DNA from: the human T2T-CHM13v2.0 reference genome, Homo sapiens
Length of the DNA: 64,000 bases
Assembly: GCF_009914755.1 (NCBI RefSeq)
Contig: NC_060930.1
Direction: 5' to 3' (one strand)
The translations under genes were made by a program, and so were the position numbers. The notes under the pieces were generated by a model that saw only the letters and a list, made by a program, of their open reading frames with translations, was not told where the DNA came from and ran no database searches. Shown here one piece after another: positions 1 through 9,904 of the stretch. Numbering within the stretch: the stretch's first letter is position 1; each line of letters opens with the position of its first letter.

Positions 1-119
1 CAGCACACTGATGGGTCTTGACTCTTTATCCAATTTGCCAGTCTGTGTCTTTTAATTGGAGCATTTAGTCCATTTACATTTAAAGTTAATATTGTTATGT
101 GTGAATTTGATCCTGTCAT
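1..119 (-). pseudogene. L1 ORF2 N-terminus (endonuclease), truncated by the window edge
   Basis: Reads MTGSNSHITILTLNVNGLNAPIKRHRLANWIKSQDPSVC from ATG at 119. Confidence 0.92.
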
Positions 120-3517: not shown

Positions 3518-5195
3518 GTAAAGAACATTTTACCAGAGAGAAACAAATGAAGCAAATACCCCTTAGTTTAGACCTTTTTTACAGGCACCTGTGAAATGTT
3601 CTACTCTCCTCTATTTTTTTTTTTAAGAAAAGATAAATAACAGTTTCTTAATCATGCATGGAAAAGGGAACAAGAAGTGGGTGATGGAAAAATGAAGAAG
3701 AAATAAGAGTGGGGCAGATTGCACAGCCAGGGGTGCCTGATTAATTATTTTGCAGGTAGGCCCGCACACAAATTAATCACAAAATTACTTAGCCAAGAGC
3801 AGTGTAATGCCAGGTTCCCAGCATCCTTGCTAATCTATGTGTATGTATGTTTTATGTCATTACTGTTTTAACACAGTAAATGAGGTTTTTAAATGCAGCT
3901 TAAAAATAAATAGATCCTCAAAGTGATAATAACTAGAGATTGGTCAATATCATATGTAAGTAAATGAGTGACAGCTGCAGTGGAAACAAAAAGTAAGAGA
4001 AGAAGGTGGAGAAACTAGTGGGAAGACTAAGAAAGTTCTGATGGAAGTGTGCTGGACATTAACTGGTTTTGTCTTAGGTGAGTGGTAATGTCAGAGTAAG
4101 TTATTGCCATGCCTTGACTTTATGATTAGTTCTGCAGCTTTTAAAATTGAAACTTGTATTAGTTTTGTACTTGAAAACAGCTAGTCAACTTAAACTTCAG
4201 GATTAAAAGTTTACTTGTTAAAATACAGATTTGTTTTCCCCAAAACAATTTATACATGTGTGAAGAAATGACTAAGGTTTTGCATTCTACCTGTTTTATT
4301 TATTCCTGGCACATCTTGAATTTATTCGTCAGCCATACTTGTACAGCTCTGTGGGCTGGCATGTGAACAAATACAGAAGAATTTTCTCGTATGTAGAAAA
4401 GATTTTGTTTTTGTTTTTGTTGTTGTTTTTAAAATAGTTATATATAACAAATTCTTGGCTGCTAAGACCCTTTCTGGTCTCAGTAATCTGAATTTTTTTT
4501 AACAAAGTATAGATGGTTGTTAAAAAGTCTTAGTTTGATAGATGGTGTAAATAAGTTCATGGAATTTTGGGAGAATTGTTGTATCATCAGTGACTGTGGC
4601 TCATAAAGGAGAAGCAGCAATAAAACTGAGCTGTTTTATCCCACTTCTAATAAAAGAATGATAAATAATAGAAAATGTTACTCTCATACTTTCCAGAAAG
4701 TGTCAGTAACAGTGGAAATTGTGGTATATTAAATCTTTTAAAAATATACATGTGAGTTTCCAGTCAAAATATTCTGTCATTTCTAACAGAGTTTAACATA
4801 AACAGTGAATTATTAAGGTAAATGTGAGTGTCTGGGAGTTGCAATATAACAAATACTACCCTGATTATTTTATTGATTCATTATAAAGGAAATATAGGTT
4901 CTGCTAAGGAAAAAAGGAGATCAAGCAATCTTACAAATAAAATTAAGTCATCACAATTAGTGTTAGAATGCTATATAACTATATAGTTTTTTACAGACAT
5001 ATTTCATATAGGTTGAATTTCATAACACTCAGCATCACTGCATCCATTTAATTTTAAAATACTGACATTTTTGTTAGTTGTAACTAGTCTCTCTCTTTCT
5101 CTTTCTCCTCCTCTCCTCCCCCCCCATATATATATATATATAAATGACAGCAGATCCCTTCTGAATAGATTAATGCCCTCCCTGAGGGGATGATT

Positions 5196-5404
5196 AACTC
5201 ACTCCACACCTGAAGTCCAAAATTATATACAGTATATAATTTTATATACCCCAGGAGTGGAGTAATAATAATATATAATGTAAATTGTATATTACATTAT
5301 TGTTTAATATATAATTTATTATGTTAATAAATTACATATAATTAATATATAATTATATGTAACATAATTTTATATAATTTTGGACATCAGGTGTGGAGTG
5401 AGTT
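5196..5404. repeat. Inverted repeat, 34-bp arms (33/34 complementary) around an AT-rich spacer
   Basis: 5196-5229 AACTCACTCCACACCTGAAGTCCAAAATTATATA versus 5371-5404 TATATAATTTTGGACATCAGGTGTGGAGTGAGTT. Confidence 0.9.
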
Positions 5405-5860
5405 CATCCTCCTCAATTCCTGGCACATTATCATCCACACAAAGTATATGTAATAAACTATGCTCTGAGGACCCTTCTGTGCTCTGCAATATGAACTTCT
5501 ATACCCATCTTTTCCATCACCTTGTTTTTCTTCCCAATGAACAACTTTAATCTGTTTTCTATAGGCTATCTTTGTTTTAAATACACACAGCTGTTTTCCA
5601 ATAATAAATGGAAAAATGCTGTTTATGTCAGTTTCTGGTTACAATGACTTTTACCTTTGTATATTTGCTTTTTCAGGCCTTTGTAGTATTTTTATCTAAT
5701 GCCTCAGTTTCATGTAGTGGCACACTCTGAGGCTGAGATTCAGCCCTAATAACATGGCCATGGGCTATTTTCTTCCTAATGTTCCTTATAGGTTTGGCTG
5801 TTGACAGACTATAATACTGCTTCCACTTTAATGACTGCTTCATTTTGCATTTTCTTTTCC

Positions 5861-6291
5861 TATCTTAGCCCATTTGTGTTGCTATAAAGGAATACTGAGG
5901 CTGGGCAATTTATGAAGAAAAGAAGTTTATTTGGTTCATGGTTCTGCAGGCTGTACAGGAAGCATGGTGTCAGCCTCTGTTTCTGGTGAAGGGCTCAGGT
6001 TGCCTCCACTCATGGTGGAAGGTGATGGTGATCTGGCATGTGCAGAGATCACATGGTAAGAGAGGAAGCAAGAAAGAGAGGGGAGGTGCTAGGCTCTTTT
6101 TAACAACCAGCTCTCCAGGGGACTAATAGAGTGAGAACTCACTTGCTCCCCACGCTCCCCGAGGAAGGGTATTAATCTATTCATGAGGGATCCACCCCCA
6201 TGACCCAAACACCTCCCACTAGGCCTCACCTCCGACATTGGAGGTCAGATTTCAACGTGAGGTTTGGGAGACAAATACCCAAACTATAGCA
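5861..6291 (-). mobile_element. MaLR solo LTR (MST family)
   Basis: tatcttagcccatttgtgttgctataaaggaatactgaggctggg ... ccaaactatagca; typical MST reverse complement. Confidence 0.88.
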
Positions 6292-6724
6292 CCCACGTTT
6301 ATAGTCAAACAAGTTTTTAGCACAGGGAGAAACATCACTGACACCTGTTATAGGCACCTGGTGGCCAACATTTGTTACTTAAATTCTAAATACCTTTATA
6401 AACACCATCGTGGCTAAGAGAAGAAAAATGAAACACCAGCAGTTCTCATTAGAAGAAAAAAATGGTAGTAGCGGAAGCAGTAGATTGCTGCCACAACAAA
6501 GGAGAAATAGCAAAGGAATTTAACACCACTACCCCAACATTGTTCACATTTTTGAAAGATTGAGCCAAGATTGAAGAGAAAGTTTAAAAAGGGATTCTGG
6601 GACTAAAGCAAAAGTGAATGTGAGGTCCCTTTTATCACTGTTTTTGCATGATATCAGGTTCATGCAAGAAATGGGCATGTAACTGTGCTGTAGAAAGCAT
6701 TGGATTTTTGCCAACCTTAGGAAT

Positions 6725-7141
6725 TGCGTTAGTCTCTTCTTGCGTCATTATAAAGAAGTACCTGATGCTAGGTAATTTATAAAGCAAAGAGGTTTAATTG
6801 GCTCACGGTTCAGCAGGCTGTACAGGAAGCATGGTGCCAGCATCTGCCCCTGGTGAGGGCTTCAGGAAGCTTTCAGTTGTGGTGGAAGATTAAGTGGAAG
6901 CAGGCATGTCACATGGTGAGACAGGAAGCAAGAGGGAGGGGAAGAAGTGTCACACTTAAACAACCAGATCTCACATGAACTCATAGAGTAAGAACTCGCT
7001 CATTACTACAAGGATGGCACCAAGCCATTCATGAGGGATCTGCTCCCATGATCCAAATGCCTCCCACCAGGCTCCACCTTCAACACTGGGGATTACAATT
7101 CAGCTTGAGATTTAGAGGGGACAAACATCCAGAGCTTATCA
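6725..7141 (-). mobile_element. MaLR solo LTR (MSTB-like) inserted in the TIGD6-like ORF
   Basis: TG...CA ends; flanks GGAAT (6720-6724) and GGCAT (7142-7146) form a degenerate 5-bp TSD. Confidence 0.9.
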
Positions 7142-7319
7142 GGCATGGTGAGTTTCAAGCAAGTGCGGGCTGCCCGAACAAACTTTGGGCATATTCTGGA
7201 ATTGTTTCACAAGTTGCCTGTAGTGAAGAAAACACTGTTTCAGTAGAGAAAATTATTAACTTACATGCAGGAGAAATTTAAAAACAAGAACAAAAATTGC
7301 TGGTTACAGCTTCAGTGGC

Positions 7320-7484
7320 TTGTTTGTTTGTTTGTTTGTTTGTTTTTGGATACAGGGTCCAGCTGTATCCAAACAGGATACAGCCTGTTGCCCAGGCTGG
7401 TCTCAGACTCCTGGGTTCAAGCAGTCCTTCTACCTCTTCCTCCCAAAATAGTGGGATTACAGGTGTGAGCCACCCCGCCCAGCC
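7320..7484 (-). mobile_element. Alu monomer (FLAM-like) inserted in the TIGD6-like ORF
   Basis: (TTTG)n tail followed by a reverse left-monomer sequence. Confidence 0.85.
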
Positions 7485-8591
7485 TGAATGGTGTTTTAAG
7501 TGCTGATGAAACAGGTGTTCTTGTTACCTTATCATATGCTTCATGCCAAAGGTAGACTTTGCAAAGGAAATAAACAGATTGATGATTGGTGTTTCTACTG
7601 TAATGCATTTTGGAACAATTGTCTTTGGCAAGTCAGCTAACTCTCAGTGCTTCAGAAATGTTCCTCCGTGATTACCAAGCCAATACACATGCCTGAATAA
7701 TGAGAGATGTGTTACTGAATGGCTGATAAAGATTGACAAGGGAATGCAAGGAGCAATACACAGTATGCTCTTGCCAGTAGACAGTTGGTCTGCCCACAAC
7801 ATACTCCCACACTTGGATCATGTAGGGGTTGAGTTTTTCCCATTGAACTACACAGCCATTCTGCAGCCATTGGATCAGGGTACAGTTGGCACAGTGACAG
7901 CTCACTTCTGAAAGCAGTTGGAACAACTCTTTCTAAATGTAGAGCATGAAGAGAAAAATGGAGAAAAGCAACATGAGTAAGCCATTGACATGATTGCAGA
8001 GACTTGGTGATCTATAAAGTTATCTGTAATCATGAAATGTTAGCAAAACACAGGCATGATTCCTGTGGAATCCCCTGAGGTCCTCCTGTAAGAAGACTGC
8101 AACTAAATGTGGTATTTGAACCAATCTAGCACTCAACTGCTGCTGTCATTGATGTCTCAAACCAGTTTAATTTTGAAGACTGTGTGGCTACAGATAGCAA
8201 TTTAACTATTTCCCAAGTTACCAAATCCTGAAGTTGCTACAGGAGTGCTAACTGATGTAAAAATTGAACCAGAAAGCCGTGGTGATAGCGATGAAGAAGG
8301 CAACAATGATAATCATGATATGCATGAGGAATAAGTGATGGAACCAGCAACAGTGAACATTTCTGAAGCCTTTGCAAGTATAGAAAGTGCTTAGAACGTT
8401 CCTTTTTCTTCAAGCAGATGTTCCTCTTGAGGTGCATACCCAATTAAATGATATAGATGAACATTCAGCGACTACTGCAACACAAAGTATTTTGAAAAGC
8501 CAAGTTCCTAGTTTTCTCCTTAACTACGAAGTTGTGAAAATATTGATTTTATAAAGTCTATAAAATAGTAAGCTTAATGAATACTTATACT

Positions 8592-8910
8592 GGCCAGGTG
8601 TGGTATAAGTATACAGGCATGGGATCATGCCTGTAATCCCAGCACTTTGGGAGGCAGAAGCAGGTTTGCTTTGTTGCCAGGAGTTTGAGACCAGCCTGGG
8701 CAACATGGCGAGACCCCGTCCCTACCAAAAAAAAAAAAAAAAAGCCAGGTGTGGTGCATGCCTGTAGTCCTAGCTACCTGGGAGGTTGAGGTGGGAGGAT
8801 CACTTGAGCCCAGGTGTTTGAGGCTGCAGGCTGCAGTGAGCTATGATCACGCCACTGCACGTGCATTCCAGTCTAGGCAATCGAGTAAGAAGACTGTCTC
8901 AAAAAAAAAA
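8592..8910 (+). mobile_element. AluJ-like
   Basis: Dimeric Alu with A-rich linker and tail. Confidence 0.9.
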
Positions 8911-9904
8911 TACTTGTGCAAACAAAGCCCCAATGTGTGTTTAAGTATGAATGTTTGGCTCTTAACTTTTATTTTATAACATTTACTGTACAGTGATTGC
9001 AGCATTTCCCCCAAATAATTTTACTATATTGTCATTTATGTCCATCTTTGGAAGCTTTCTTTCTCTACCTCCCCTCTTTCAACCCTCACCTCCCATCCCA
9101 GCATTAGATGGCAGAGATGATAAAATAAGCTTTTGCCTAATAATACCTAGAAGAGAAAAATACTCCCAAAGTGCTGACATTTCAGCTAGGAAAACAAGAA
9201 GACAAAAGACACACTTGGATTTAATAGGATAGATTTACAGTAGCTAAGATAAAAAAGGATATTCAGATTAAGGAGATAGCAGGGCATAACCTACCCAGAA
9301 AGTTGCTGATTGGCAATGGAAGAGTAAGTACAAACAGCTCCTTATCCTTACTGCTTGGGAAAATGAGTTCGTGTGTGGGCTAGTGGAGGAAGACAGAGGA
9401 GCAGTGGGGGAAACTGGCCAGGAGTGAATCTGTAGGAGAAGATAATGAGCAAAGGAATGCTGGTCATTCTCTCAGGTTGGTGTTATGGAGGGGCTGTTGA
9501 AAGGTGAGGAGGAGTGAAAGCAAGGAACTAAAGAAAGGAACGGATAACCTACTGGCCTCACCTACTCATAGTCTTGGTTGCATATGATACGACGTGACTC
9601 AGACCAACAAACAATTCTCCAGTCTTCTATAAAAGCAGGAAAACAACCTTTGCCCACCACTTTTATTTTGAGATGAAAATTAAAATAATGAACAAAATTA
9701 ACAAATTAAAGTTAAAGCACCATTTACAAAGTACATTATACAAAGTAATAAGATAACTGACAATCACATTTGGTATGTATCTGGGTTGGAATTCAAAGAA
9801 GGAATTTAAGAATTACTTTTTAAAGAAATTTATCAGAGAAGCACAATTATGAAGGGAAAAAATATATTATTTTGTTTTTAGATAATAAATCATCATTGAT
9901 CAAG

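What the first reader, a model, noticed from the sequence alone, without database searches (positions are those of the whole stretch)
6410..8554. Hidden full-length TIGD6-like pogo transposase gene fossil in SMIM8 intron 2 (candidate lost domesticated gene)
Seen: after removing the MST LTR (6725-7141) and Alu monomer (7320-7484), about 1.55 kb (roughly 515-520 codons) translates with stops and frameshifts as (V)AKRRKMKHQQFSLEEK/MVVAEAVDCCHNKGEIAKEFNTTTPTLFTFLKD*AKIEEKV ... VFA*YQVHARN ... HGEFQASAGCPNK ... LHAGEI ... SADETGV ... TEWLIKIDKGMQGAIHSMLLPVDSWSAHNILPHLDHVGVEFFPLNYTAILQPLDQG ... AIDMIAETW*SIK ... FNFEDCVATDSNLTISQ ... QLNDIDEH ... KSQVPSFL. From memory this is collinear end to end with human TIGD6 (QFSLEEKM, KGDVAKEF, FQASVG, WHAGEI, NADETGV, IDNCSAHNMLPHL, AIDMIAAAW, QLNGIDE). 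Several stops are TGA at Arg positions, consistent with CpG decay. It is sense to SMIM8 and I see no TIRs or poly-A tail. Only one fragment shows in the ORF track (end of 7048-7281). Inference: either a domesticated TIGD6 paralogue lost in the primate lineage, a relic of the transposon family behind TIGD6, or a very old retrocopy.
Basis: partly seen in the sequence, partly recalled or inferred. Interest (0 to 1): 0.85.

Follow-up and report, generated by a model that had tools for sequence, protein, structure and literature searches.

The report
Dead TIGD6-like transposase fossil in SMIM8
An intron of the human SMIM8 gene holds the badly decayed, full-length remains of a jumping-gene enzyme whose closest living relative is the human gene TIGD6; it is a non-working fossil, partly annotated already, that still shows what TIGD6's ancestor looked like.

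Summary
Window 6410-8527 (+) matches TIGD6 end to end (aa 1-521) once a MaLR-type LTR (6725-7141) and an antisense Alu monomer (7319-7484) are removed; both excisions restore the reading. 207 of 483 aligned codons are identical (42.9%), with 10 in-frame stops and about 14 frameshifts. It is dead.

TIGD6 is by far its closest human relative (281 summed bits against 39 or less for four paralogues). The DNA is single-copy, and 0 of 20 other Tigger-like loci examined are TIGD6-like.

In the tree it is sister to therian TIGD6 (100/99), outside the marsupial-plus-placental crown (98/94). An AU test does not reject a placement with the eutherian genes (p 0.198).

It keeps the ancestral DD30D triad (LQPLDQG). 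All seven TIGD6 orthologues in which the pattern scored all three motifs read LQPLNLG.

Best reading: an undomesticated sister copy of the element behind TIGD6, or a very early duplicate, decaying neutrally since.

Novelty is low. RefSeq already annotates 7493-8470 as a TIGD6 pseudogene. New here are the 5' third, the last codons and the phylogenetic placement. No support was found for a lost functional gene.

The parts
6410..6724 (+). Fossil segment 1. It matches TIGD6 residues 1 to about 111 (the CENP-B_N-type helix-turn-helix and the start of the Tc5-type DNA-binding region). The first codon is GTG where TIGD6 has ATG. It holds stops at 6561, 6585, 6649 and 6691.
   Evidence: alignment. (blastn 6411-6691, E 5e-20). 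(CENP-B_N at 13.7 bits, below the 21.2 cut-off). (N-terminal third scores 191 against -38..20 in shuffles).
6725..7141 (+). MaLR-type LTR inserted into the fossil. The 5-bp target duplication is GGAAT (6720-6724) / GGCAT (7142-7146).
   Evidence: 40 of 40 scored genomic copies match, 78-83% identity apart from the copy itself at 100%; 10,693 first-look candidates. (excision restores ...FANLRNGEFQASAGCPN). (homologous to the LTR at about 5861-6290).
7147..7318 (+). Fossil segment 2. It matches TIGD6 residues about 112-177 (the rest of the Tc5-type DNA-binding region and the linker).
   Evidence: (blastn 7153-7285, E 4e-10).
7319..7491 (-). Antisense Alu monomer (7319-7484, with its (TTTG)n tail complement at the left) plus one copy of its target duplication.
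   Evidence: arms 7386-7414 and 8677-8705 are 97% complementary; 7430-7471 and 8622-8663 are 79%. (excision restores [17 protein letters not shown] against TIGD6 LIADYSPDDIFNADETG).
7492..8527 (+). Fossil segment 3. It matches TIGD6 residues about 178-521: the DDE_1 catalytic core and the TIGD6-specific C-terminal region. RefSeq pseudogene LOC100421022 (7493-8470) lies inside it. The last frame stays open to the TAA at 8552-8554.
   Evidence: DDE_1 at 41.8 bits, cut-off 22.. (blastn 7615-8560, E 8e-46). Hub annotation.
7505..7507 (+). First catalytic Asp codon (GAT, in SADETG).
7780..7782 (+). Second catalytic Asp codon (GAC, in LLPVDSWSAH).
7873..7875 (+). Third catalytic position, 30 residues after the second. 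The fossil has GAT = Asp (LQPLDQG), where all scored therian TIGD6 have Asn (LQPLNLG).

Best explanation
This is a dead, non-functional fossil of a pogo-superfamily (pogoR/Tigger-type) DDE transposase gene from the same lineage as the human domesticated gene TIGD6.

Most likely it is a second genomic copy of the mobile element from which TIGD6 was recruited, placed in what is now SMIM8 intron 2 by cut-and-paste transposition and never domesticated.

Its line separated from the TIGD6 line before the marsupial-placental split, and before TIGD6 replaced its third catalytic Asp by Asn. Since then it has decayed neutrally: start codon lost, 10 stops, about 14 frameshifts. Later a MaLR LTR and then an Alu monomer inserted into it.

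Shown: the end-to-end homology, the decay, the two insertions, the specific kinship to TIGD6, and the retained DD30D/DQG motif. Inferred: origin by transposition rather than by gene duplication, the timing, and the absence of any present function.
For: Homology and decay:
- Full-length collinearity with 42.9% identity, 10 stops and 14 frameshifts, far above shuffles.

Specific kinship to TIGD6:
- Summed tblastn bits are 281 for TIGD6, against 39 or less for the TIGD4, TIGD7, JRKL and TIGD1 loci.
- The fossil's own fragments hit only themselves and TIGD6 in the genome.
- Alignment identity is 42-44% to TIGD6, 33-37% to the nearest transposases, and 26-31% to TIGD4, TIGD7 and TIGD2.

Tree (34 rows, careful search):
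- Fossil plus TIGD6 has support 100/99.
- The four TIGD6 orthologues, including a marsupial, form a clade without the fossil at 98/94.
- The topology is the same when the fossil's frames are chosen with a transposase guide instead of TIGD6 (95/97).

Catalytic motif:
- The fossil reads D...D-30-D with LQPLDQG.
- All 7 TIGD6 orthologues in which the pattern scored all three motifs, including marsupial P0154, read LQPLNLG. One further partial orthologue reads MQPLNLG, and one degraded muntjac entry gave no match.
- Among 15 related transposases the pattern found Asp at that position in all 14 where the motif was matched, and DQG in 9.
- A copy from another mammal (P0003, 77-79% identical) also has DQG, so it is not a recent human back-mutation.

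Character states: at 22 columns where TIGD6 is fixed for a state unlike the transposase majority, the fossil has the TIGD6 state at 8, the transposase state at 5, and another residue at 9. It therefore branches part-way along the TIGD6 stem, as in the tree (0.33 before the split, 0.20 after).

No eutherian affinity: at 40 columns where eutherian and marsupial TIGD6 differ, the fossil matches the eutherian state at 8 and the marsupial state at 10.

Age:
- Fourfold sites differ at 41 of 81 (JC 0.84), with more transversions than transitions.
- Copies of the interrupting LTR family differ pairwise by only about 20%. The fossil is therefore several-fold older than that LTR.

Literature: TIGD6 is pogoR-derived, therian, DD30N (PMC7386202, passages read) and 'mostly DD30N' (PMC7325037, passages).
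Against: - No terminal inverted repeats or TA target duplication were found. The best flank pair (6364-6383 / 8940-8959, 75% over 20 nt) is no better than the other 67 chance-level pairs.
- No other copy or MITE of the family was detected in the genome. DNA search is single-copy, and 0 of 20 other Tigger-like loci are TIGD6-best. That is unusual for a transposon. Sensitivity is low, however: a search with the TIGD6 C-terminal part missed even this fossil.
- The AU test does not reject a tree that joins the fossil to the three eutherian TIGD6 genes (lnL difference 11.09, p 0.198).
- Pairwise dN/dS against human TIGD6 is 0.29-0.36, or about 0.5 using the fourfold-site distance. That is somewhat below the roughly 0.6 expected if the fossil had been neutral since the split. 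It hints at a period of constraint, which fits an active transposon lineage but also a once-functional gene.
- Sequence alone cannot separate transposition from duplication. Homology to the TIGD6 locus stops at the coding sequence.
Confidence: 0.55

Rival explanations
1. It is an early duplicate of the proto-TIGD6 gene (DNA-level or retroposed), made before the marsupial-placental split while the gene still had its DDD triad. The copy either died at once or served as a second domesticated gene for some time and was then lost. The second case is the reader's 'lost domesticated paralogue'.
For: - It has the same tree position and the same DQG retention as the best explanation.
- It is single-copy, with no TIRs and no sister copies. 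That suits a gene duplicate better than a transposon family.
- Pairwise dN/dS of 0.29-0.36, or about 0.5 from fourfold sites, is lower than the roughly 0.6 expected for one fully neutral branch.
Against: - No intact relative closer than TIGD6 appeared in the exhaustive search of 1.84 billion representatives. After three read-through translations of this same locus, the best hits are 42% or less.
- None appeared among 71 TIGD6 homologues at 90% clustering either. Re-scored against the fossil together with the rest of the 215 proteins held, TIGD6 orthologues rank first and the only higher identity is P0001, a read-through of this same locus.
- The other-mammal copy P0003 carries W at two places where the human copy has TGA, and it changes frame, so it is also broken.
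- dS is near saturation, so the ratio is soft.
- The published distribution gives one TIGD6 gene in therians and mentions no paralogue (PMC7386202, passages read).
Confidence: 0.22
2. It is a processed retrocopy, or other duplicate, of the already domesticated TIGD6 gene, made in the eutherian lineage after the split from marsupials and decayed since.
For: - The AU test does not reject fossil plus eutherian TIGD6 as a clade (p 0.198).
- It is single-copy, lies in an intron, and has no TIRs.
- The parent coding sequence is intronless (contiguous in L003), so lack of introns says nothing either way.
Against: - The crown TIGD6 clade excludes the fossil at 98/94 and at 97 with an independent guide.
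- It would need two reversals, Asn to Asp and Leu to Gln, at adjacent motif positions, both already present in the ancestor shared with P0003.
- It shows no excess of eutherian-derived states (8 eutherian against 10 marsupial of 40), and it is slightly closer to the marsupial orthologue (215/484 against 207/483 and 205/487).
- There is no poly-A tail and no UTR homology, including 9.9 kb upstream and 8.3 kb downstream of the TIGD6 coding sequence. That test has low power at this age.
Confidence: 0.1
3. The stretch still has a function today, as a coding exon, a small ORF or an exapted regulatory element within SMIM8.
For: It lies sense to SMIM8 within intron 2 (hub annotation). The longest open piece is the 79-aa ORF at 7672-7911.
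Against: - There are 10 stops and about 14 frameshifts over 507 codons, and the start codon is lost.
- Third-position GC (0.35) has relaxed to the intron's level (0.34), and CpG has halved.
- It is interrupted by two later repeat insertions.
- No RefSeq exon or functional element lies here (hub annotation).
Confidence: 0.03

Closest known systems
TIGD6 (tigger transposable element derived 6), human chr5 and its therian orthologues
   Same: - The architecture is the same over the full length: CENP-B_N-type HTH, Tc5-type HTH, DDE_1 core and the lineage-specific C-terminal tail.
- TIGD6 is the closest relative by every measure, and its sister in the tree.
   Different: - The locus differs: an SMIM8 intron on chr6, against chr5 between SLC26A2 and HMGXB3 (PMC7325037, passages).
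- The fossil is broken by 10 stops and about 14 frameshifts.
- Its triad is DD30D with DQG instead of DD30N with NLG.
- It lies outside the marsupial-plus-placental TIGD6 clade.
LOC100421022, RefSeq 'tigger transposable element derived 6 pseudogene'
   Same: It is the same object. The RefSeq span 7493-8470 lies inside fossil segment 3 (hub annotation).
   Different: RefSeq covers only about TIGD6 residues 178-500. The 5' third lies beyond the Alu and LTR insertions (6410-6724 and 7147-7318), and with the last 57 bases it is not in that span. No paper in the searched library mentions the locus.
Active pogoR-type pogo transposases. Unnamed database entries P0158-P0163 are 51-57% identical to TIGD6. 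Named relatives include a TIGD6-like protein of the mite Galendromus occidentalis (P0005, 54%).
   Same: They share length (about 510-520 aa), domain order, DD30D spacing, the LQPLDQG motif (LQPSDLG in P0005) and, in the full-length entries, the C-terminal ...KITDF... tail.
   Different: The fossil is only 33-37% identical to them, against 42-44% to TIGD6. It has no intact frame and no detectable TIRs.
Tigger1/Tigger2-type fossils, the common human pogo relics
   Same: They belong to the same superfamily, share the DDE_1 domain, and are decayed copies scattered in introns.
   Different: Those are multi-copy and closest to TIGD1 (14 of 20 loci examined), JRK (5) or TIGD2 (1). None is TIGD6-like. 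This fossil is single-copy.

Membership tests
pogo/Tigger-type DDE transposase (Pfam DDE_1 with N-terminal CENP-B-type DNA-binding domains) | DDE_1 catalytic domain above Pfam's gathering score | tested here: met
   41.8 bits, E 1.1e-10, cut-off 22, on the single-frame read-through 7618-8079. 38.5 bits on the whole frame.
pogo/Tigger-type DDE transposase (Pfam DDE_1 with N-terminal CENP-B-type DNA-binding domains) | Catalytic triad D, D, D/E with family-typical spacing | tested here: met
   Asp codons lie at 7505-7507, 7780-7782 and 7873-7875, with 30 residues between the second and third. This matches the related transposases. It holds for the conceptual translation only, since the gene is broken.
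pogo/Tigger-type DDE transposase (Pfam DDE_1 with N-terminal CENP-B-type DNA-binding domains) | [quoted passage not shown] | tested here: inconclusive
   - CENP-B_N scores 13.7 bits, E 0.049, below the 21.2 cut-off.
- HTH_Tnp_Tc5 was not detected on the single-frame piece 7147-7281.
- Both regions align collinearly to TIGD6 residues 7-54 and 75-136, where Pfam does find them in P0151.
pogo/Tigger-type DDE transposase (Pfam DDE_1 with N-terminal CENP-B-type DNA-binding domains) | Terminal inverted repeats and a TA target-site duplication flanking the element | tested here: not met
   No convincing inverted pair flanks the fossil. The best, 6364-6383 / 8940-8959, is 15 of 20 and is not bounded by TA. 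At the estimated decay, two arms would be near 55% alike, so the test has little power.
pogo/Tigger-type DDE transposase (Pfam DDE_1 with N-terminal CENP-B-type DNA-binding domains) | Intact transposase reading frame | tested here: not met
   10 in-frame stops, about 14 frameshifts, and GTG at the start position.
TIGD6 orthologue group (domesticated host gene) | Conserved genomic position (between SLC26A2 and HMGXB3) | tested here: not met
   The fossil is on chr6 in SMIM8 intron 2 (hub annotation). The TIGD6 gene is at chr5:150.53 Mb of the same assembly. The synteny statement comes from PMC7325037 (passages read).
TIGD6 orthologue group (domesticated host gene) | DD30N signature (LQPLNLG) | tested here: not met
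   The fossil has DD30D, LQPLDQG. DD30N for TIGD6 is also stated in PMC7386202 and PMC7325037 (passages).
TIGD6 orthologue group (domesticated host gene) | Falls inside the clade of TIGD6 orthologues | tested here: inconclusive
   The tree places it outside the crown, as sister, at 98/94 and 97. The AU test does not reject a position with the eutherian genes (p 0.198).
TIGD6 orthologue group (domesticated host gene) | Open frame kept by purifying selection | tested here: not met
   The frame is broken. Composition has relaxed to that of the intron.
Processed pseudogene (retrocopy) | 3' poly-A tract and flanking target duplications | tested here: not met
   There is no A-rich tract after 8527 once the later Alu (8594-8908) is set aside. 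No flanking direct repeat was sought beyond inspection.
Processed pseudogene (retrocopy) | Carries the parent's spliced UTRs | tested here: not met
   The flanks gave no significant match to 9.9 kb upstream or 8.3 kb downstream of the TIGD6 coding sequence. All hits have E of 0.02 or more, are short and are not collinear. Power is low at this age.
Processed pseudogene (retrocopy) | Loss of the parent's introns | not testable with these tools
   The TIGD6 coding sequence is contiguous in the genome, so the criterion carries no information.

The most novel reading that the evidence does not exclude
The chr6 copy was once a second domesticated TIGD6-like host gene that kept an intact DDD catalytic triad. 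It was held under purifying selection for tens of millions of years after it split from TIGD6, and then lost in the lineage leading to primates. Intact orthologues might then survive in some mammals. Only two things speak for this: pairwise dN/dS lower than expected (0.29-0.36, about 0.5 from fourfold sites, against roughly 0.6 expected for one neutral branch), and the single-copy state without TIRs.
Probability: 0.1. Interest if true: 0.55.

Novelty: already known. Interest (0 to 1): 0.22.

Why it matters
For genome annotation it matters little. It is a dead pseudogene that RefSeq already lists in part, and the practical gain is a corrected extent: 6410-8527, in three pieces split by an LTR and an Alu monomer.

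For students of transposon domestication it has modest value as an outgroup inside the genome.
- It is the only TIGD6-clade sequence found in the human genome besides TIGD6.
- It branches before the marsupial-placental split and still carries the ancestral DD30D triad and the DQG motif.
- That polarises the changes on the TIGD6 stem. About 8 of 13 informative states were already TIGD6-like at the split, and 5, including the loss of the catalytic Asp, came later.
- It also shows that the progenitor was very probably catalytically competent when the two lines parted.

Tried and rejected
- Word-index protein search with the fossil's 154-aa read-through found nothing among longer proteins. Among near-length proteins it found only three read-through translations of the same locus.
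- A search for TIRs by inverted repeats gave 68 chance-level pairs in 5 kb and none convincing.
- A search for TIGD6 UTR or flank homology found none.
- A search of the genome with the TIGD6 C-terminal 179 aa found only TIGD6 and TIGD4. It missed this fossil, so it cannot show that other fossils are absent.
- My first excision of the Alu was one base off because I misread the ruler. Searches exposed the error, and one search is the corrected run. The alignment is superseded.
- The first alignment, with free jumps, picked spurious matches inside the LTR and the Alu and was replaced.
- I considered whether the LTRs at about 5861-6290 and 6725-7141 are the two ends of one provirus. I rejected this. 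They share only 285 of 449 alignment columns, and the DNA between them is the collinear N-terminus of the fossil.
- Age estimates disagree. Retention at conserved columns (93 of 148) suggests roughly 0.2 substitutions per site by my own conversion, and the tally of 10 stops and about 14 frameshifts is compatible with that order. dN and fourfold sites suggest 0.28-0.42. I give only a broad range.
- Literature searches for LOC100421022 (0 papers) and for TIGD6 with pseudogene or SMIM8 (16 papers, 14 listed, none on this locus by title or abstract) found nothing on this fossil.
Full report
**What is there**

The window is human T2T chr6:88,536,001-88,600,000 (hub note; confirmed). I aligned an intact 521-aa TIGD6 orthologue (P0151, named by its source as gelada TIGD6) to the DNA with a frameshift-tolerant dynamic programme.

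- The alignment runs from window 6410 to 8527 and from residue 1 to residue 521.
- It has 483 aligned codons, of which 207 are identical (42.9%) and 303 are positives.
- It contains 10 in-frame stops and about 14 frameshifts.
- The score of 605 compares with -103 to -55 for six shuffles and the reversed DNA.
- The N-terminal third alone, which is the part not in RefSeq's pseudogene, scores 191 against -38 to +20 in ten shuffles.
- At the DNA level, blastn to the TIGD6 locus gives collinear matches at 59-65% identity. These start at codon 1 and end about 26 bases past the stop.
- Pfam finds DDE_1 at 41.8 bits (cut-off 22). CENP-B_N reaches only 13.7 bits (cut-off 21.2). HTH_Tnp_Tc5 is not found on a single-frame piece.

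**The insertions**

The stretch 6725-7141 is a copy of a very abundant LTR.

- The first look gave 10,693 candidates. All 40 scored ones match, at 78-83% apart from the copy itself, and mostly over its whole length.
- It is flanked by GGAAT / GGCAT. Removing it with one duplication copy gives ...FANLRNGEFQASAGCPN..., against TIGD6 ...LANMLGYDNFQASVGWLN....

The stretch 7319-7484 is an antisense Alu piece.

- It is 97% complementary over 29 nt to the full Alu at 8594-8908.
- Removing 7319-7491 gives [17 protein letters not shown] against LIADYSPDDIFNADETG.

Both elements therefore landed in an already continuous TIGD6-like sequence. The net length is 1523 nt, about 507 codons. The family names 'MST' and 'MaLR' are recalled labels and were not tested here.

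**It is dead**

- The first codon is GTG.
- The stops are TGA, TAA, TAG and TGA at four Arg positions, five TGA/TAG at Trp positions, and one TAA in an inserted codon.
- Human TIGD6 has CGC or CGG at those Arg codons.
- Third-position GC is 0.35, against 0.47 in TIGD6 and 0.34 in the surrounding intron. CpG count is 10 against 19.

**Whose relative is it**

- In the same genome the fossil's 79-aa and 36-aa open pieces hit only themselves and the TIGD6 gene at chr5:150.53 Mb.
- Summed tblastn bits are 281 for TIGD6, against 39, 31, 31 and 39 for the loci I take to be TIGD4, TIGD7, JRKL and TIGD1. Those names are assigned from chromosomal position and recall.
- Full-length alignment identity is 42-44% to four TIGD6 orthologues, the marsupial Dromiciops being best at 215/484. 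It is 33-37% to the nearest transposases and 26-31% to TIGD4, TIGD7 and TIGD2.
- The DNA is single-copy.
- Of the 30 loci kept from 117 TIGD6-query matches, I classified the 20 that are not host genes. 14 are closest to TIGD1, 5 to JRK, 1 to TIGD2 and none to TIGD6. The other 87 matches were not examined.

**Where it branches**

I built a careful maximum-likelihood tree of 34 rows: the fossil with X at every break, 4 TIGD6 orthologues, 24 related transposases, and 5 human paralogues.

- The fossil joins TIGD6 with support 100/99.
- The four orthologues, marsupial included, form a clade that excludes the fossil at 98/94.
- Branch lengths are 0.33 below the split, 0.20 between the split and the TIGD6 crown, and 1.35 on the fossil.
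- The result does not depend on having used TIGD6 to choose frames. With a transposase guide (P0159) the same two branches get SH-aLRT 95 and 97.

Against this, an AU test does not reject the best tree in which the fossil is held with the three eutherian genes (lnL 11.09 lower, p 0.198).

**Independent characters**

- The catalytic signature of the fossil is D (SADETG), D (LLPVDSWSAH), then 30 residues, then D (LQPLDQG).
- All 7 TIGD6 orthologues in which my pattern scored all three motifs read LQPLNLG with the same spacing. One further partial orthologue reads MQPLNLG, and one degraded muntjac entry did not match.
- In 15 related transposases the motif was found in 14. All 14 have Asp, and 9 have DQG (alignment).
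- The literature gives DD30N for TIGD6 (PMC7386202 and PMC7325037, passages read).
- At 22 columns where the four orthologues share a state that the transposase majority lacks, the fossil has the TIGD6 state at 8, the transposase state at 5 (including this Asp) and something else at 9. At 148 columns where all agree, it keeps 93.
- At 40 columns where eutherian and marsupial TIGD6 differ, it matches the eutherian state at 8, the marsupial at 10, neither at 19, and is a gap or break at 3.

Together these say that the fossil left the TIGD6 line part-way along its stem, before the Asp-to-Asn change and before the therian crown.

**Other copies in databases**

The exhaustive search of 1.84 billion representatives gave three close hits.

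- P0001 (98%) and P0002 (96%) include the Alu-derived part or nearby sequence and read W where the human DNA has TGA.
- P0003 (79%, 77%) also has W at two human TGA positions and follows a different frame after the DDE core, so it is broken too.
- P0003 has ILLLIDDCSAH, closer to TIGD6 than the human copy is, and it has LQPLDQG.
- After these three, the best hits are a TIGD6 fragment (42%) and transposases (39% or less).
- No intact protein closer to the fossil than TIGD6 was found among the 215 proteins collected.
- One caveat applies. At 50% clustering a hypothetical intact paralogue could hide in the TIGD6 cluster. The 90%-clustered search with TIGD6 (71 hits) showed no named vertebrate candidate either.

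I did not try to find out which samples the unnamed entries came from.

**Age**

- Nucleotide identity to human TIGD6 is 65.6%, 69.0% and 46.3% at codon positions 1, 2 and 3.
- Pairwise dN is 0.41-0.45 and dS is 1.1-1.6.
- At 81 fourfold sites in codons with the same first two bases, 41 differ (16 transitions, 25 transversions; JC 0.84).
- Copies of the interrupting LTR family are about 20% apart pairwise, which is about 0.12 per copy by my own correction.
- By my rough conversions the fossil's own neutral decay is 0.2-0.4 substitutions per site, two to three and a half times that of the LTR. This is inference with wide error. It fits an origin around or before the therian ancestor and does not fit a recent copy.
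- The dN/dS ratio (0.29-0.36, or about 0.5 with the fourfold distance) is somewhat below the roughly 0.6 expected if one branch were neutral throughout. I take this as a weak hint of a constrained phase, as an active element or as a gene, and no more than that.

**Transposon copy, gene duplicate or retrocopy**

Nothing in the flanks decides this.

- No TIRs or TA duplication were found.
- There is no poly-A.
- There is no homology to 9.9 kb upstream or 8.3 kb downstream of the TIGD6 coding sequence.
- All three tests have little power at this age.

I favour a transposed sister copy (0.55), because the line still had an intact catalytic triad when it split and transposition is the ordinary way such a gene makes a second copy. 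An early gene duplicate, possibly functional for a while, stays open (0.22). A eutherian retrocopy is less likely (0.10). Present function is very unlikely (0.03).

**Known or new**

- RefSeq already annotates 7493-8470 as LOC100421022, a TIGD6 pseudogene (hub note).
- No paper in the searched library mentions that identifier.
- None of the 14 listed papers for TIGD6, pseudogene or SMIM8 concerns this locus, by title or abstract.
- The passages I read in Gao et al. 2020 report pseudogenes for other TIGD genes but none for TIGD6. Their supplements were not opened.
- What is added here is the full extent, the two insertion junctions, the sister position and the retained DD30D/DQG.

I file it as already known, with modest interest for the history of TIGD6.

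Noticed in passing
L003/L006 (G000 chr5:150,531,332-150,532,893, minus strand), the TIGD6 gene itself: In this assembly the TIGD6 reading frame is split. A 354-aa ORF ends 10 codons after ...LNSSEDQ, and the rest (179 aa stop-to-stop...EEVDIKQAIDMIAAAW... to the normal end) lies in another frame, as from a 1-bp difference near codon 345. The orthologues have one 521-525-aa frame. A paper lists TIGD6 among genes with homozygous loss-of-function variants in people (PMC3868571, one passage read). I did not establish whether this is that variant.
   Followed up: partly
window 5861-6290: There is a second MaLR-type LTR in the same orientation, 120 bp upstream of the fossil's first codon. It shares 285 of 449 alignment columns with the LTR at 6725-7141, so it is a separate insertion of a different subfamily or age, not the other end of one provirus. 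If the fossil once had a 5' UTR or TIR, this LTR may sit in it.
   Followed up: partly
window 8594-8908: A full-length sense Alu sits 66 bp after the fossil's last aligned codon. It has an apparent target duplication (AATACTT...; read). It splits whatever 3' flank the fossil had.
   Followed up: no
proteins P0001, P0002, P0003: Public protein collections hold 'proteins' that are read-through translations of this human or mammalian pseudogene, with W where the DNA has TGA. One even begins inside the Alu-derived stretch. They look like host DNA in metagenome assemblies called under a TGA=Trp code.
   Followed up: partly
proteins P0005, P0029, P0179, P0186-P0188, P0195, P0209; tree: The nearest named relatives of TIGD6 outside mammals in this search are 'TIGD6-like' proteins of arachnids (a predatory mite at 54%, ticks, a spider) and hemipterans (aphids, whitefly) at 42-54% identity. 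The fossil-plus-TIGD6 pair is sister (89/75) to a clade holding the mite protein and the unnamed entries P0158-P0163. This would fit horizontal arrival of the progenitor in early mammals, which I did not test.
   Followed up: no
proteins P0166, P0193, P0181, P0212: Several database entries look like translations of degraded TIGD6 copies in other species, for example two muntjac 'hypothetical proteins' and two unnamed entries with W at Arg positions. TIGD6 or its copies may be decaying in some lineages.
   Followed up: no
window 5188-5412: A 42-nt inverted repeat, 93% complementary, with arms 141 nt apart around a very AT-rich stretch, lies in the same intron (pair I1). It may be a small palindromic or MITE-like element.
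   Followed up: no
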